NCBI RefSeq assembly: GCF_009914755.1
Contig: NC_060928.1
Length of the DNA stretch: 64,000 nucleotides
Origin: the human T2T-CHM13v2.0 reference genome, Homo sapiens
Direction: 5' to 3' (one strand)
Positions 16,739 to 39,753 of this stretch are shown one piece after another; within the stretch, counting starts at the first letter, position 1, and each line of letters begins with the position of its first letter. The notes below the pieces were generated by a model. The model made no database searches. It saw only the letters and a list, made by a program, of their open reading frames with translations, and was not told the origin of the DNA. Made by a program: the position numbers and the translations under genes.

Positions 16739-17010
16739 TTTTATTGCCCATGTGGCCCCAGCCTGTGATATAGCAGTACGTGTCAGGCTCTAGCCACTGC
16801 TCCGGGTTGGGCAAGCAGACAGGCCGGACGTAGCCAGTCTCACTGATGTCTTCACTCAGCTCAACGATGCTGATGTCATAGTCCACCACTGCTCGACTGT
16901 AGCGGGGATGCAGGATGATGGTCTTCACAAAGCGTGTCTGCATGAACACTGATGGATGGTCTAGATTGTTGATGCCAAGCACCACTTTCCAAACTGCAGC
17001 ATTCTCTCTC
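16739..17010 (-). CDS. CORIN: CORIN exon 20 (catalytic Asp, DYDISIVEL)
   Basis: ttttag|G AGA GAG ... AAT AAA A|gtaagc; RENAAVWKVVLG...PVCLP...TGWGHMGNK; 272 nt. Confidence 0.97.
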
Positions 17011-34830: not shown

Positions 34831-35002
34831 TAAATGTCTGAGTTTTTGTTTGTTGTTATTGTTTTGTTTATGTTTGGTTTTGTTTGTTTTGTTTTGCTAC
34901 AAATTACATAGCAACAGATAGCTGGAAGAGATTCTGCAGTGATGTTCGTCAGTTTGGGGTAGGTTTTCCCTTAGTTTTATTCTTCTGCTCTCTTTAGGCA
35001 TA

Positions 35003-36190
35003 TTGTGGTGGTTAATTTTATGTATCAATTTGGCTGGGCCACAGCACCCAAATATTTGGCCAAACATTATTCTATATGTTTCTGTGAAGGTGTTTTTTTT
35101 TATGAGATTAATATTTAAATCAGCGGACTTTGAGTAAAGCCGATGACATTCCATGATGTGGATGGGCCTTACCCATTCAGATAAAAATCTTTTTTTTTTT
35201 TTTATACTTTAAGTTTTAAGGTACATGTGCACATTGTGCAGGTTAGTTACATATGTATACATGTGCCATGCTGGTGCACTGCACCCACTAACTCGTCATC
35301 TAACATTAGGTATATCTCCCAATGCTATCCCTCCCCCCTCCCCCCACCCCACAACAGTCCCCAGAGTGTGATATTCCCCTTCCTGTGTCCATGTGATCTC
35401 ATTGTTCAATTCCCACCTATGAGTGAGAATATGCAGTGTTTGGTTTTTTGTTCTTGCGATAGTTTACTGAGAATGATGATTTCCAATTTCATCCATGTCC
35501 CTACAAAGGACATGAACTCATCATTTTTTATGGCTGCATAGTATTCTATGGTGTGTATGTGCTACATTTTCTTAATCCAGTCTATCATTGTTGGACATTT
35601 GGGTTGGTTCCAAGTCCTTGCTATTGTGAATAATGCCGCAATAAACATACGTGTGCATGTGTCTTTATAGCAGCATGATTTATAGTCCTTTGGGTATATA
35701 CCCAGTAATGGGATGGCTGGGTCAAATGGTATTTCTAGTTCTAGATCCCTGAGGAATCGCCACACTGACTTCCACAATGGTTGAACTAGTTTACAGTCCC
35801 ACCAACAGTGTAAAAGTGTTCCTATTTCTCCACATCCTCTCCAGCACCTGTTGTTTCCTGACTTTTTAATGATTGCCATTCTAACTGGTGTAAGATGGTA
35901 TCTCATTGTGGTTGTGATTTGCATTTCTCTGATGGCCAGTGATGATGAGCATTTTTTCATGTGTTTTTTGTCTGCATAAATGTCTTCTTTTGAGAAGTGT
36001 CTGTTCATGTCCTTCGCCCACTTTTTGATGGGGTTGAATAGAACAAGGACTGACCTCTCCAGCAAGAAGGAATTCTGCCAGCAGATTGAACTGCAACTCT
36101 TGCCCGATCTTCCTGCCTGCCACCTACCTCATCAGGTTTTGGATTCACCAAGCCTCCAGAATCACATAAGCCAATTATGTCAAAACAAAC
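35003..36190 (+). mobile_element. MLT2 (ERVL) LTR split by an L1 insertion
   Basis: tgtggtggttaattttatgtatcaatttggctgggcc...; resumes at tgaatagaacaagg (~36035). Confidence 0.8.
35190..36036 (-). mobile_element. Young L1 3' end (L1PA2-like), ~850 bp
   Basis: ORF2 C-terminus [19 protein letters not shown]...[13 protein letters not shown] intact; 3'UTR nearly identical to the 26857-27305 copy. Confidence 0.95.
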
Positions 36191-36324
36191 CTTTGTTTGT
36201 CATCATTGTTTTGTCTGTGTTTTGGTTTGGTTTGGTTTGGATGGGCTCAAGTGATCACTCTTCCTCGGAGCCAATCCAGTTCAATTAAGTTCATTTCCCA
36301 TTGCTACCCCTCTAATTTTCTCAC

Positions 36325-36374
36325 CTTGTTCAGCACACAGAAGAGAAATCTTACTTCTGCTATGACAAGGCTGC
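36325..36374 (-). pseudogene. Duplicated pseudo-exon copy of CORIN exon 18 in intron 19
   Basis: aatctag|G CAG CCT TGT CAT AGC AGA AGT AAG ATT TCT CTT CTG TGT GCT GAA CAA G|gtgaga; part of a 158-bp direct repeat, 36248-36405 vs 37171-37328. Confidence 0.9.
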
Positions 36375-36406
36375 CTAGATTTGGAAACATAAAATGGCAT
36401 AACATA

Positions 36407-36408
<2 letters not shown>

Positions 36409-36482
<74 letters not shown>

Positions 36483-36490
36483 TCTCTCTG
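36409..36490. repeat. Compound microsatellite (CT)n(AT)n(AC)n
   Basis: Read directly from sequence. Confidence 0.97.
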
Positions 36491-36919
36491 AATAGCACAC
36501 ATATTACACACATTATACCTTTAACTCTGCTTCCCAAACTACTCACCAGTTGCGCCTGCATCCAAACCTCATTGTAGTATCCAAATAAATCACTTCTGTT
36601 TAAGTTATTATATATGTGATATATTTAAGAGGTCTAGAAAAGAGACTAATAGTAGCATAGAGTCAGTCTTCTAAACTTCTTTCTCTCTCTTAGGACAAAA
36701 ATTGGAAGCAATATGCAGCCATTTCCAACAAATGAGCAGCCCACATATTAGATGGCAACATCAAGGATAGAAAACTTTAGGAAGATAAAGGCCTGGGAAG
36801 TAGATTAGCTGTGGCTTTCGCCTGGATGTGGCTTCATGGAGTTACATATGCCACTGAGAATTCCCGAGTGACAAAGTGATCAAATCCAGGCAAAGGAAAA
36901 AAGGAAAGGTGCAGCTTAC

Positions 36920-37094
36920 CCCTCGAAGCAGTGGGCAACTGTCAGAACCCACTTCTTGGCAATGAGGACACAGCCACAGATATGTCCACTGGGTTCACTC
37001 TGCAGAGAACACTGCCATGGCCACCTTCCAGGGCGACTCGTCCGACCTCCAAGGATCCTTTTGTTCATTCGGGCAGCAGGGCGGCGCCCACAGT
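36920..37094 (-). CDS. CORIN: CORIN exon 19 (activation site KR|ILGG, catalytic His in TVAHC)
   Basis: ggtag|AC TGT ... GAG GG|gtaag; CGRRPAARMNKRILGGRTSRPGRWPWQCSL...VLTVAHCFEG; 175 nt. Confidence 0.98.
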
Positions 37095-37247
37095 CTACCA
37101 AGGAGCAGAAGACACAGTTTGTGAGTTGATGCCAAACCTTGCTAAATGCTTAGCTCTTTGCTGTCACTTACAAGCGATCACTCTTCCCCTGAGCCAATCC
37201 AGTTCAATTAAGTTCATATCCCATTGCCACACCTCTAATTCTCTCAC

Positions 37248-37297
37248 CTTGTTTAGTACACAGAAGAGAAATTTTACTTCTGCTCTCACAAGACTGC
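37248..37297 (-). CDS. CORIN: CORIN exon 18 (end of SRCR domain)
   Basis: aatccag|G CAG TCT TGT GAG AGC AGA AGT AAA ATT TCT CTT CTG TGT ACT AAA CAA G|gtgaga = QSCESRSKISLLCTKQ; 50 nt; phases join exons 17 and 19. Not in the ORF track. Confidence 0.93.
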
Positions 37298-39753
37298 CTG
37301 GATTTGGAAACATAAAATGGTATAACATTAAGTTACATATTTCTTGTTCAATTCAAACACTTTACCAGTGAAATACAAGACAGCTCCAACTGTTACCACC
37401 AGAAATCACATTCTCTGAGCATTTCCTGTGTTACCACAGGAAAGCACATTCCTCTTGGTGCAGGAATTCTCAAGGCAGGAGTGTGGTCAGATATTAATCA
37501 TGTTGTAGGCAGGAGTATATGGAATATATATACTTCTTTTTTTAGTTTATTTAATGTCATCATAATTTAATTTCACATTTGTGGGAAAAGAAACTATTTT
37601 AACAAAATTTCCCACATCATTTTGGCTGGTGGAACCACCACAATGCAAATTCAAACTACAGTTCTCAAGGGGAGATGGGAGTACTTTTTAGAGTCAGTGG
37701 TGAGGAGGCAGCATGTCAGATTTTTATGCTTATACAAAGTGGTGTGTGCTCAAAACAAGTTGAGAAATACTACAAGATGAGTAAAATATGACTTCAGAAA
37801 TTTGAAGAACAGATTAAGAAATGGAATATTTAGACTGGAAAGGAGTCTTACCAAGACTCTCAAGGTTAAATTTCTGCTATATGAGAAGTTGACAAGAGGA
37901 AAAGTAGCTTAAATTTGCTTCATATAACTTTAGACGACATGATCAGAACTAGTAGGTGCAATTTACAAGAATTGTGGGTTCAGGAAAAGAATTTTCTAAA
38001 ATCTAAATTCAACTTTGAATGCAAGAACATGGTCCCTGTTAAAGGATCTTTCAATGTGATGGCACAAGATAATTCAGTTTGGGGTAGAAATTTTAATCAC
38101 TAAGTTCTCTTCCAACCATGAAACATTTACATTACAACCTCAATGTAAATGAAAAAGGACAATAAAAATCCATATTGGGACTTTCAAAAATACTATGATG
38201 TACTTAGAATCCTAGATCTATCAGATTGAAAAAAAAAAATGCAACCCTAAATATATAATTTCCACATTCCTTTCTGAAGATTTACTGTATTTTCATTTCT
38301 TGCTAAATTTATGTAGGGGCAAGTGCAATTATTTGCATACAATAAATTATGTAATACAGGAAAAGCTCATTTGCTTTCTACCCTCCCACAGTCTAAAATC
38401 CTCTCTTCCTTACTCTCTATTACATTATTCTAAATTTATTTGCAGCACTTACCAAAGCCTAAAATTATTTTTACTAATTTATAATCTTTATTTTCACCCC
38501 CATATAGTGTATGTTCCCTGAGATGAGGGCCTTCATTTCCCCTCATTCACTTCTACATCCCCTCAAAGCCTAATACTGAACTTGGCATTAAAGAAATACT
38601 TAATAATTAGTTGTTATTTGTTAGATTGAAAACACATAGCTCTTAGGAATAGGAAAAGTCATCAAAGACTATTCATCCAACTTCTTAGTGGAAATTGCAG
38701 TTATATAAGATAACACTTGTAGTTAGTAAACCAGGACTAGAACCAAGTTTACCAACTCCCAATCTAGAATGCATTATTTATTTATTTATTTACTTGACCT
38801 GAAAGGTTTTTTCTGGAATTACAGGTTTGGGGAAACAAATCACTTGGTTAAAAGATTTAGGTCATTGTTTTAGAGGAAGTACTTCAATTGACAAATATTC
38901 AGAAATTTGGCTGCAGAGTTTGTTCTATGAGGAAAATGTCAAGAACTTTTTAAGAGGAAATGGTCCATTTTTAGTTTTCCTCTTTAAAATTCTTAAGAAG
39001 TAGCAACATTTATGAGCTTCAGAGTCAGATATATTTATTTAGAGTTCAGACACTATCACTTAGCATCTGTGGGCTGTGAGATTTGAGCAAGTTATTTAAA
39101 TATTCAAGCTGTAAAATATTGGATAATCATCCATGGTTCACAAATCTATTATGAGGTTTAAATGAGTCAGTGTATATAAGATTACCTAGCTGTGTGCCTA
39201 TAAAGTAATAAGAACTTAGTAAGTGTAAATTTCCTCAATTTATCTTCCTCCTACACCCCACCCATAGACAAGGGAAGCAACCCTGTTTAAGATGCAATGA
39301 TTTTTTAGGGTAAACTTAAGTGTACTTTCAAGGCAACTTGATTATAATTTCATTTTTGTGTCTATTCCTCTCTTAGACATTCCAAGTTTTCTTAGTTATC
39401 ATTACTTCAGTTCCCTCTGTTTACTAGTTCTATGTAGCATCTGCAGGAAATGCAGACATGAGGGTTTATTTTGAATAAGATATTAAAAGTAATCCAAGAT
39501 TAGAACCCAAGTTCCTCTCTCCTCGCCATGATAGTTTCTGTAATCGTGAATAAAAGAGAAAAAAAATCTATGTCTAGAAAGAAGAAATAAAAGCAACCAA
39601 TGTTGAAATGTAAAGGCAATAGTAAATCTATGGAAACTCTTTACTGATATGACAAATTTGGATTATCTTAAGTTAAAAAATGGAAGAAAGGCCCAATGAT
39701 AAACTCTTGCTCTGTAATCTGACTCTACACAGCTCTTATGAATGCATTCTTAC

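What the first reader, a model, noticed from the sequence alone, without database searches (positions are those of the whole stretch)
36248..37328. Out-of-order duplicate of CORIN exon 18 with intact splice sites: candidate poison exon
Seen: 36248-36405 and 37171-37328 are an ungapped 158-bp direct repeat (15 mismatches by hand count, ~90% identity, offset 923 bp). The upstream copy contains the real 50-nt exon 18 (QSCESRSKISLLCTKQ). The other copy lies in intron 19, about 545 nt after the exon-19 donor, and keeps the acceptor (CAG->TAG), the identical donor AAG|GTGAGA, an open frame and both Cys (QPCHSRSKISLLCAEQ). Exon 19 ends in phase 2, so the copy would be read in frame, but 50 nt then shifts exon 20 to a TAG at 16961-16963, about 220 nt before the next junction. 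Inference: inclusion would trigger NMD or give a corin with the catalytic His but no Asp/Ser, i.e. a possible splicing off-switch for the ANP convertase. Caveats: 5 of the 6 exonic changes are nonsynonymous (looks like neutral decay), and the likely branch point of the original (CTTAAT) is replaced by a GA repeat.
Basis: partly seen in the sequence, partly recalled or inferred. Interest (0 to 1): 0.8.

Follow-up and report, generated by a model that had tools for sequence, protein, structure and literature searches.

The report
Decaying intronic copy of CORIN exon 18
A 158-base copy of CORIN exon 18 with both splice sites sits in the next intron and would break the reading frame if spliced in, but it looks like an old, drifting relic and not a regulatory switch.

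Summary
Window 36248-36405 and 37171-37328 are an ungapped 158-nt direct repeat with 15 mismatches (90.5% identity). They are the only two copies in the 3.1-Gb assembly.

The copy carries a 50-nt latent exon (36325-36374, minus strand). Its 9-nt donor window is identical to that of exon 18, and its 23-nt acceptor window differs at one position (CAG to TAG). Splicing it in after exon 19 keeps the frame through the copy, then shifts exon 20 to a TAG at 16963-16961, 222 nt before the next junction.

Nothing supports the "off-switch" reading.
- Keeping AG, GT, the open frame and both Cys is expected by chance (P about 0.34).
- Mismatches are not depleted in the exon or in the splice windows.
- At least 3 of the 4 residue differences arose on the copy's lineage.
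- No RefSeq transcript and 0 of 120 vertebrate corin protein models contain it.
- Equally good consensus decoys are common in these introns (19 in the CORIN part of the window).

It belongs to a described class, unannotated intronic exon duplicates (PMC9013439, PMC12343006). Whether it is ever included could not be tested here. The most likely reading is a neutral relic, at most splicing noise.

The parts
37171..37328 (-). Source segment: the last 31 nt of intron 17, exon 18 (37248-37297, 50 nt) and the first 77 nt of intron 18.
   Evidence: Exon coordinates come from the hub's RefSeq table and fit the splice-site strings printed.
36248..36405 (-). The 158-nt duplicate in intron 19, ungapped, with 15 mismatches to the source.
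36325..36374 (-). Latent 50-nt exon inside the duplicate. Its acceptor is ...aaatctag|GCA and its donor is AAG|gtgaga. It is open in the frame set by exon 19.
   Evidence: It is not in the RefSeq table supplied by the hub.
16961..16963 (-). TAG stop reached in exon 20 if the latent exon is included. It lies 222 nt upstream of the exon 20/21 junction.
36409..36482 (.). Compound microsatellite that reads (UG)8(UA)14(GA)16 in the pre-mRNA sense. It ends 4 nt upstream of the duplicate and takes the place of the sequence that holds the likely branch point of exon 18.
   Evidence: (TRF on the plus strand: CT x16, TA x14, AC x8).
36199..36247 (-). 49-nt A/C-rich stretch (26 A, 16 C) including a (CAAAC) repeat, directly after the duplicate. 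It belongs neither to the source nor to the old repeat that follows.

Best explanation
This is a short, dispersed intragenic duplication. A 158-bp piece of CORIN was copied once into intron 19, 545 nt past exon 19. The piece holds the end of intron 17, the whole of exon 18 and the start of intron 18. From the divergence, the copying probably happened in an anthropoid or catarrhine ancestor. Since then the copy has drifted neutrally. Because it is short and only about 10% diverged, it still carries an AG, a GT and an open frame, so it is a latent exon. The spliceosome most likely skips it almost always. It has lost the upstream branch-point context of exon 18 to a purine microsatellite. It also lacks the 153-nt intron that couples exon 18 to exon 19, and it faces a 19.3-kb downstream intron. 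Any transcript that does include it would be frameshifted and removed by NMD as splicing noise, not as regulation. Shown here: the duplication, its uniqueness in the genome, its limits, the frame consequences and the lack of any signature of constraint. Inferred: the age, the neutrality and the low or absent inclusion.
For: 1. There are two copies only in the genome, with sharp limits at 158 nt.
2. The differences look neutral. There are 10 transitions and 5 transversions. The exon has 6 of 50 mismatches against 9 of 108 in the intron flanks (Fisher p 0.56). Five of the 6 exonic changes are nonsynonymous, against about 67% nonsynonymous and 28% synonymous expected for random changes.
3. Simulation scattered 15 random changes over the segment. 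AG and GT survive in 67% of runs, the open frame in 81%, both Cys in 63%, all four together in 34%, and an unchanged 9-nt donor in 40%.
4. The splice windows are not significantly protected: 1 of 32 positions against 14 of 126 elsewhere, two-sided p 0.31.
5. Polarising with 120 vertebrate corin proteins: all listed primates have T and K where the copy has A and E. Chimpanzee, bonobo, orangutan, Old World monkeys, marmoset and a lemur have Q where the copy has H and human has E. So at least 3 residue changes are on the copy and 1 is on the human/gorilla exon.
6. Zero of 120 stored protein models contain the copy's peptide or two exon-18-like motifs, and 115 of 120 continue HCFEG with RE.... The hub's RefSeq table lists no exon there in any of the 3 CORIN transcripts.
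7. A crude consensus count finds 19 intronic AG..GT pairs of 30-250 nt in the CORIN part of the window that score as well as the copy (donor at least 8 of 9, acceptor at least 11 of 16 pyrimidines). Only 1 of the 8 real internal exons reaches that score. Consensus quality alone therefore does not predict use.
8. The class is known and mostly silent. Ivanov and Pervouchine report 4,027 intronic, unannotated, non-repeat targets homologous to exons of the same human gene, with the median expression signal near zero in some tissues (PMC9013439, section 6).
Against: The splice-site windows are as good as those of a constitutively used exon. The donor 9-mer is identical, and the acceptor 23-mer differs only at position -3 (C to T), which is still a pyrimidine. 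Candidate branch A's at -31, -26 and -16 lie inside the copied part, so some inclusion is plausible and I could not measure it. The one-sided test for protected splice windows gives p 0.15; 158 nt is too short to exclude weak constraint. The absence from RefSeq and from protein models is weak evidence, because NMD targets are rarely annotated as proteins, the protein database is clustered at 90% identity, and only 120 of 435 hits were stored. No primate DNA could be examined, so neutrality rests on a within-genome comparison and on protein outgroups.
Confidence: 0.72

Rival explanations
1. One reading: the copy is a functional poison exon. Regulated inclusion after exon 19 introduces a premature stop and lowers corin output through NMD, or produces a truncated His-only protease.
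For: The frame logic holds. The copy is read in frame, and the stop comes 222 nt before the next junction. The donor window is identical and the acceptor window nearly identical to those of a constitutive exon. Regulated poison exons with this frameshift logic exist, for example SCN1A 20N (64 bp, stop in exon 21) and SCN8A 18N (PMC7790302, passages).
Against: There is no signature of constraint. The residue changes sit on the copy. The branch-point context is replaced by a (GA)n run. There is no annotated transcript and no protein model (hub table). Established poison exons such as 20N are conserved as strongly as coding exons across vertebrates, whereas this copy is, from its divergence, probably no older than the anthropoid primates. 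Library searches for corin with 'poison exon' returned 3 papers. I opened one, where 'corin' is part of an author's first name; the other two I saw only as listings. The search for corin, TDP-43 and 'cryptic exon' returned 1 paper, where Corin is a person's name in the acknowledgements.
Confidence: 0.05
2. Splicing noise with latent clinical relevance. The copy is included at a low, unregulated level (well under a few percent). It matters only as a pre-formed pseudoexon that a single variant, for example a better branch point or enhancer, could activate to give a CORIN loss-of-function allele.
For: The splice windows are near-constitutive. At least some unannotated exon duplicates have split-read support in GTEx, more so at higher identity (PMC9013439 section 6). 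The 36350 A-to-G change also creates an internal GTAAGA that could compete as a donor.
Against: No transcript data are available here. Nothing in the searched literature reports a CORIN deep-intronic splicing allele. This overlaps with the best explanation and differs from it only in degree.
Confidence: 0.2
3. On the origin only: the copy is what is left of a 923-bp tandem duplication of the exon 18 to exon 19 block, whose remaining 765 bp were later deleted. The alternative is a one-step insertion of 158 bp.
For: The 923-bp offset places the start of the copy exactly where a second tandem unit would begin.
Against: There is no trace of intron 18, exon 19 or intron 19 homology after the 158 nt. 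Instead a 49-nt A/C-rich stretch follows, then an old interspersed repeat with at least 38 other genomic matches that all start at or after window 36198. This model needs two events. A retro-insertion model is not supported either: the only shared flank word is a 5-mer with a chance probability of 0.21.
Confidence: 0.1
4. Chance similarity, assembly artefact or a member of a repeat family.
For: None found.
Against: The match has E 1.2e-54. There are exactly two copies in a gapless assembly. The window contains no N. The upstream flank 36380-36919 is unique in the genome.
Confidence: 0.01

Closest known systems
Unannotated intronic exon duplicates: the 'targets' of Ivanov and Pervouchine 2022 (PMC9013439; outline, sections 5 and 6 read) and the 'intronic match / degenerate (pseudo) exon' class of Exonize 2025 (PMC12343006; passages read).
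   Same: An annotated coding exon has a significant homolog in an intron of the same gene. The homolog overlaps no annotated exon and is not an interspersed repeat.
   Different: It is not strictly tandem. Exon 19 lies between source and copy, and only 158 bp were copied. I could not check whether CORIN is in their Zenodo tables; the paper's main text does not mention CORIN (0 occurrences).
Conserved regulatory poison exons, SCN1A 20N and SCN8A 18N (PMC7790302; passages read).
   Same: A short cassette (64 bp there, 50 nt here) whose inclusion shifts the frame and gives a stop in the next exon.
   Different: 20N is conserved like a coding exon across vertebrates, is demonstrably included, and its use runs inverse to expression. 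The CORIN copy shows no constraint and has no inclusion evidence.
Tandem-duplicated mutually exclusive exons (PMC8373072 and PMC5740500; search listing and abstracts only).
   Same: Origin by exon duplication, with equal length (50 nt).
   Different: The copy cannot substitute for exon 18. Exon 19 lies between them, and skipping exon 18 breaks the frame, because exon 17 ends in phase 2 and exon 19 starts in phase 1.
Known human corin isoforms: the cytoplasmic-tail isoforms of Qi et al. 2011, seen only as cited and used in PMC4260221 (passages).
   Same: Same gene.
   Different: Those isoforms differ at the 5' end (Met-1 and Met-30 tails). None involves intron 19.
Pathogenic pseudoexons as defined by Keegan and colleagues (PMC8819188; passages).
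   Same: An intronic tract bounded by acceptor and donor motifs.
   Different: Their definition excludes tracts that duplicate a canonical exon and requires observed splicing in a proband. Neither condition is met or known here.

Membership tests
Unannotated intronic exon duplicate (degenerate exon) | Significant sequence similarity between an annotated exon and an intronic region of the same gene. | tested here: met
   158 nt, 90.5% identity, E 1.2e-54.
Unannotated intronic exon duplicate (degenerate exon) | The target overlaps no annotated exon. | tested here: met
   The hub's RefSeq table has no exon of CORIN or of LOC105374444 within 36248-36405. GENCODE was not available.
Unannotated intronic exon duplicate (degenerate exon) | The target is not an interspersed or low-complexity repeat. 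| tested here: met
   Only two copies in 3.1 Gb. TRF reports no array inside 36248-36405.
Unannotated intronic exon duplicate (degenerate exon) | Tandem arrangement next to its source exon. | tested here: not met
   Exon 19 lies between the two, and no other part of a 923-bp unit is duplicated.
Poison exon (NMD switch exon) | Inclusion creates a premature stop more than about 50-55 nt upstream of the last exon junction (rule recalled). | tested here: met
   TAG at 16963-16961, 222 nt before the exon 20/21 junction, with a further junction downstream.
Poison exon (NMD switch exon) | Measurable inclusion in transcripts, raised when NMD is blocked. | not testable with these tools
   No RNA-seq is available. 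Indirect evidence only: absent from the 3 RefSeq transcripts (hub table) and from 120 of 120 stored corin protein models.
Poison exon (NMD switch exon) | Sequence conservation above the intronic background. | tested here: inconclusive
   Within-genome proxies show no constraint: exon against flanks p 0.56, splice windows p 0.31, and 3 or more residue changes on the copy. No orthologous primate DNA could be examined.
Poison exon (NMD switch exon) | Regulated inclusion that runs inverse to gene output. | not testable with these tools
   Needs tissue and condition RNA data.
Mutually exclusive duplicated exon pair | Either copy alone keeps the reading frame. | tested here: not met
   Phases. Exon 17 ends in phase 2 and exon 19 starts in phase 1, so dropping exon 18 shifts the frame. 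Adding the copy shifts exon 20.
L1-mediated retro-insertion of an RNA fragment | A poly(A)-derived tail and target-site duplications. | tested here: not met
   An A/C-rich 49-nt stretch follows the copy (26 A of 49). The only shared flank word is the 5-mer AGGTT, with chance probability 0.21. The copy also contains intron sequence.

The most novel reading that the evidence does not exclude
A primate-specific duplicate of exon 18 has been co-opted as an NMD switch exon for the ANP/BNP convertase. Inclusion in cardiomyocytes or decidua, perhaps modulated by proteins bound to the adjacent (UG)8(UA)14(GA)16 tract, would tune corin output. If so, it would be a target for antisense blocking to raise corin in heart failure or pre-eclampsia.
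Probability: 0.05. Interest if true: 0.6.

Novelty: new member of a known kind. Interest (0 to 1): 0.2.

Why it matters
Corin activates ANP and BNP, and low corin accompanies hypertension, heart failure and pre-eclampsia. A real poison exon in CORIN would give a handle for raising corin with splice-blocking oligonucleotides. It would also be a clean case of an exon duplicate recruited as a switch.

As the evidence stands, the practical value is smaller:
- The site is a ready-made pseudoexon worth including when deep-intronic CORIN variants are interpreted.
- It is a mapping hazard. Reads from exon 18 and from the copy differ at only 6 of 50 bases.
- It is a tidy example of how intact splice sites and an open frame persist by chance in a young duplicate.

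Tried and rejected
- Extension of homology: blastn with word size 7 on 3-kb contexts found nothing beyond the 158 nt.
- Other genomic copies: none.
- RNA structure: 146-nt folds around either acceptor do not differ from shuffles (z -0.15 and -0.48). A hairpin between the GA repeat and the exon's UCU-rich run is therefore not supported.
- Target-site duplication for a retro-insertion: only a 5-mer, chance probability 0.21.
- Pfam on the open frame of the neighbouring interspersed repeat (35565-36038, minus strand): 0 families. My reading of it as the 3' end of an L1 rests on recall alone.
- Literature:
  - 'corin' with 'poison exon': 3 papers. I opened one, where the match is an author's first name. 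The other two were seen only as listings.
  - 'corin', 'splice variant', 'natriuretic' and 'exon': 16 papers. I opened one, which held nothing relevant.
  - corin, cryptic exon, pseudoexon and NMD at 2 of 4 terms: 726 papers. None of the 15 listed holds 'corin', so this search was uninformative.
  - corin, TDP-43 and 'cryptic exon': 1 paper, where Corin is a person's name.
  - The corin isoform search found only the cytoplasmic-tail isoforms.
The supplementary and Zenodo tables of PMC9013439, which may list this CORIN target with GTEx read counts, were therefore not seen.
- A second protein-database search with the copy's own peptide was considered and not run. A 16-17-residue match cannot reach significance in 5.8 billion sequences, and clustering at 90% identity would hide a truncated isoform.
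Full report
**Observation**

Reading the minus strand and running repeat finder on 35000-38500 confirm a single direct-repeat family. It has two 158-nt copies, at 36248-36405 and 37171-37328, spaced 923 nt apart. No inverted repeat was found.

A base-by-base comparison gives 15 mismatches of 158 (90.5% identity), 10 transitions and 5 transversions. Two fall in the 31-nt acceptor flank, 6 in the 50-nt exon and 7 in the 77-nt donor flank.

A search of the whole 3.1-Gb assembly finds only these two places (E 4e-75 for the copy against itself, 1.2e-54 for the exon 18 locus). This is therefore neither a repeat family nor a chance match. A sensitive blastn (word size 7) between the two 3-kb contexts finds nothing beyond the 158 nt; the next hit is 29 nt at E 0.077.

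**Anatomy**

CORIN is on the minus strand. The copy at 37171-37328 holds the real exon 18 (37248-37297). The other copy lies in intron 19, 545 nt after the exon 19 donor, and contains a latent 50-nt exon at 36325-36374.

The donor 9-mer, AAG|GTGAGA, is identical to that of exon 18. The 23-nt acceptor window differs at one position, -3 (CAG to TAG).

Joining the annotated exons by coordinates shows three things:
- Exon 19 ends in phase 2.
- The copy is read in frame as QPCHSRSKISLLCAEQ.
- Exon 20 is then shifted to a TAG at 16963-16961, 222 nt before the exon 20/21 junction.

The hypothetical product would keep the AHC histidine and lose the Asp of exon 20 and the GDSGG serine of exon 22.

**Surroundings**

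In transcript order the region reads as follows:
- Intron 19 sequence that is unique in the genome.
- A compound microsatellite, (UG)8(UA)14(GA)16, at 36482-36409.
- Four bases, GGTT.
- The 158-nt copy.
- A 49-nt A/C-rich stretch that includes a (CAAAC) repeat (26 A of 49).
- An old interspersed repeat. The 38 matches elsewhere in the genome, at 71-83% identity, all begin at or after window 36198 (40 of 129 candidates were scored).
- A younger polyadenylated element at 36039-35190 that splits the old repeat. From recall it reads like the 3' end of an L1. Pfam found no family in its open frame.

In the copy this hexamer reads GGTTAT, preceded by the GA run. Three A's, at -31, -26 and -16, are shared by both copies.

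**Origin**

A 923-bp tandem duplication followed by a deletion would explain the offset, but no second trace of the unit remains.

A retro-insertion would explain the A-rich stretch. However, the only candidate target-site duplication is a 5-mer that arises by chance 21% of the time, and the copy contains intron sequence.

I leave the mechanism open. A one-step templated insertion of about 158 bp is the simplest reading; this is inference.

**Is there any sign of selection on the copy?**

There is none.
- Mismatch density in the exon (6 of 50) is no lower than in the intron flanks (9 of 108; Fisher p 0.56).
- If the real exon had been frozen, 6 or more of 15 differences falling in the exon would be slightly unexpected (p 0.047). 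If both copies drift, it is ordinary (p 0.33).
- The two splice windows (32 nt) hold 1 mismatch, against 14 in the other 126 nt (two-sided p 0.31, one-sided 0.15).
- In 100,000 simulations, 15 random changes were all placed on the copy. AG and GT survive in 67%, the 16-codon frame stays open in 81%, both Cys survive in 63%, all of these together in 34%, and the 9-nt donor is unchanged in 40%.

The features that made the copy look preserved are therefore what drift leaves in a segment this young and this short.

**Polarising the changes**

A protein search with exon 19 (57 aa, longer targets) returned 435 corin-like proteins at E <= 1e-5. The best 120 were stored.

The exon 18 peptide differs among species as follows (names):

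| Species | Peptide |
|---|---|
| Human and gorilla (9 proteins) | QSCESRSKISLLCTKQ |
| Chimpanzee, bonobo, orangutan, Old World monkeys (34 proteins) | QSCQSRSKISLLCTKQ |
| Marmoset | QPCQSRSKISLLCTKQ |
| A lemur | QSCQSRSKISLLCDKQ |
| The intronic copy | QPCHSRSKISLLCAEQ |

From these:
- Q is ancestral at the E/H site, so there was one change on each lineage.
- T to A and K to E happened on the copy.
- S/P is ambiguous, because that site flips repeatedly in mammals.

At least 3 of the 4 residue differences are therefore on the copy, which fits unconstrained decay.

**Age**

The Kimura two-parameter distance is 0.102 overall and 0.089 for the intron parts. The exact 95% interval on 15 of 158 is 5.4-15.2%.

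With recalled primate per-lineage rates of 1.0-1.2e-9 per site per year, this centres on roughly 37-51 Myr, within a wide range. That places the event around the anthropoid or catarrhine ancestor. This is inference from recalled rates.

**Is it used?**

I cannot measure that here. The indirect evidence is as follows:
- The hub's RefSeq table lists no exon at 36325-36374 in any of the 3 CORIN transcripts.
- Zero of 120 stored corin models contain the copy's peptide or two exon-18-like motifs. 115 of the 120 continue HCFEG with RE.... The other 5 are partial or odd models from manatee, muntjac, tenrec and two unnamed sources.
- Both absences are weak, because NMD targets are seldom annotated as proteins and the database is clustered at 90% identity.

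As a base rate, a crude consensus count over the CORIN part of the window finds 19 intronic AG..GT pairs of 30-250 nt that score as well as the copy (donor at least 8 of 9, acceptor at least 11 of 16 pyrimidines with YAG). Only 1 of the 8 real internal exons, exon 18 itself, reaches that score. Motif quality alone therefore does not predict use.

The context also differs between the two copies. Exon 18 is coupled to exon 19 by a 153-nt intron. The copy faces a 19.3-kb downstream intron and has a purine repeat where the upstream branch region should be. RNA folds around both acceptors are no more stable than shuffles.

**Comparison with what is known**

The class is described.
- Ivanov and Pervouchine aligned every human exon to its own gene. 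They found 4,027 intronic targets outside annotated exons and repeats. Read coverage was above flanking controls only in some tissues, and there were more split reads at higher identity (PMC9013439, sections 5 and 6). CORIN is not named in their main text. Their tables could not be opened.
- Exonize classifies the same situation as an intronic match that may be an unannotated or degenerate exon (PMC12343006, passages).
- Established regulatory poison exons such as SCN1A 20N share the frameshift logic. They are, however, conserved like coding exons across vertebrates and are demonstrably regulated (PMC7790302, passages).
- The pathogenic-pseudoexon definition of Keegan and colleagues excludes duplicates of canonical exons (PMC8819188).
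- The corin isoforms I found in print differ only in the cytoplasmic tail (PMC4260221, passages).
- My searches found no paper linking CORIN to a poison, cryptic or pseudo exon. The limits of those searches are given under Tried and rejected.

**Verdict**

The frame and NMD logic is right. The functional claim is unsupported, and the available evidence favours a neutral, primate-age relic that is skipped or contributes only splicing noise (confidence about 0.72). A regulated switch remains possible at about 5%. This is a new member of a known kind and of low interest unless RNA data show inclusion.

Noticed in passing
window 37285-37287 (codon GAG in exon 18); proteins P0016-P0036 and others: Human and gorilla corin have E at this exon 18 residue (9 proteins). 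Chimpanzee, bonobo, orangutan, Old World monkeys, marmoset and a lemur have Q. The human-plus-gorilla pattern suggests incomplete lineage sorting or a recurrent change.
   Followed up: partly
window 36345-36352, minus strand: The A-to-G difference at 36350 turns GTAAAA of exon 18 into GTAAGA inside the latent exon. This is an internal donor-like site that would give a 20-nt exon, again shifting the frame by +2.
   Followed up: no
window 36409-36482: A perfect compound microsatellite, (CT)16(TA)14(AC)8 on the plus strand, abuts the copy. In the pre-mRNA it reads (UG)8(UA)14(GA)16, and the UG run is the kind of motif bound by TDP-43 (recalled). A literature search for corin, TDP-43 and 'cryptic exon' found nothing relevant.
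   Followed up: partly
window 35190-36039, minus strand: A 5'-truncated, polyadenylated interspersed element in the same orientation as CORIN splits an older repeat whose halves lie at about 36198-36040 and 35189-35000. From recall it reads like an L1 3' end. Pfam found no family in its 158-aa open frame.
   Followed up: partly
window 37034-37120, plus strand: According to the hub table, the first exon of lncRNA LOC105374444 is antisense to CORIN exon 19. The exon 18 copy and the microsatellite lie about 550-790 bp upstream of that lncRNA's start, in its putative promoter region.
   Followed up: no
window 36547-36633, minus strand: A second consensus-quality AG..GT pair (87 nt) lies between exon 19 and the copy. 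It is one of the 19 decoys counted.
   Followed up: no
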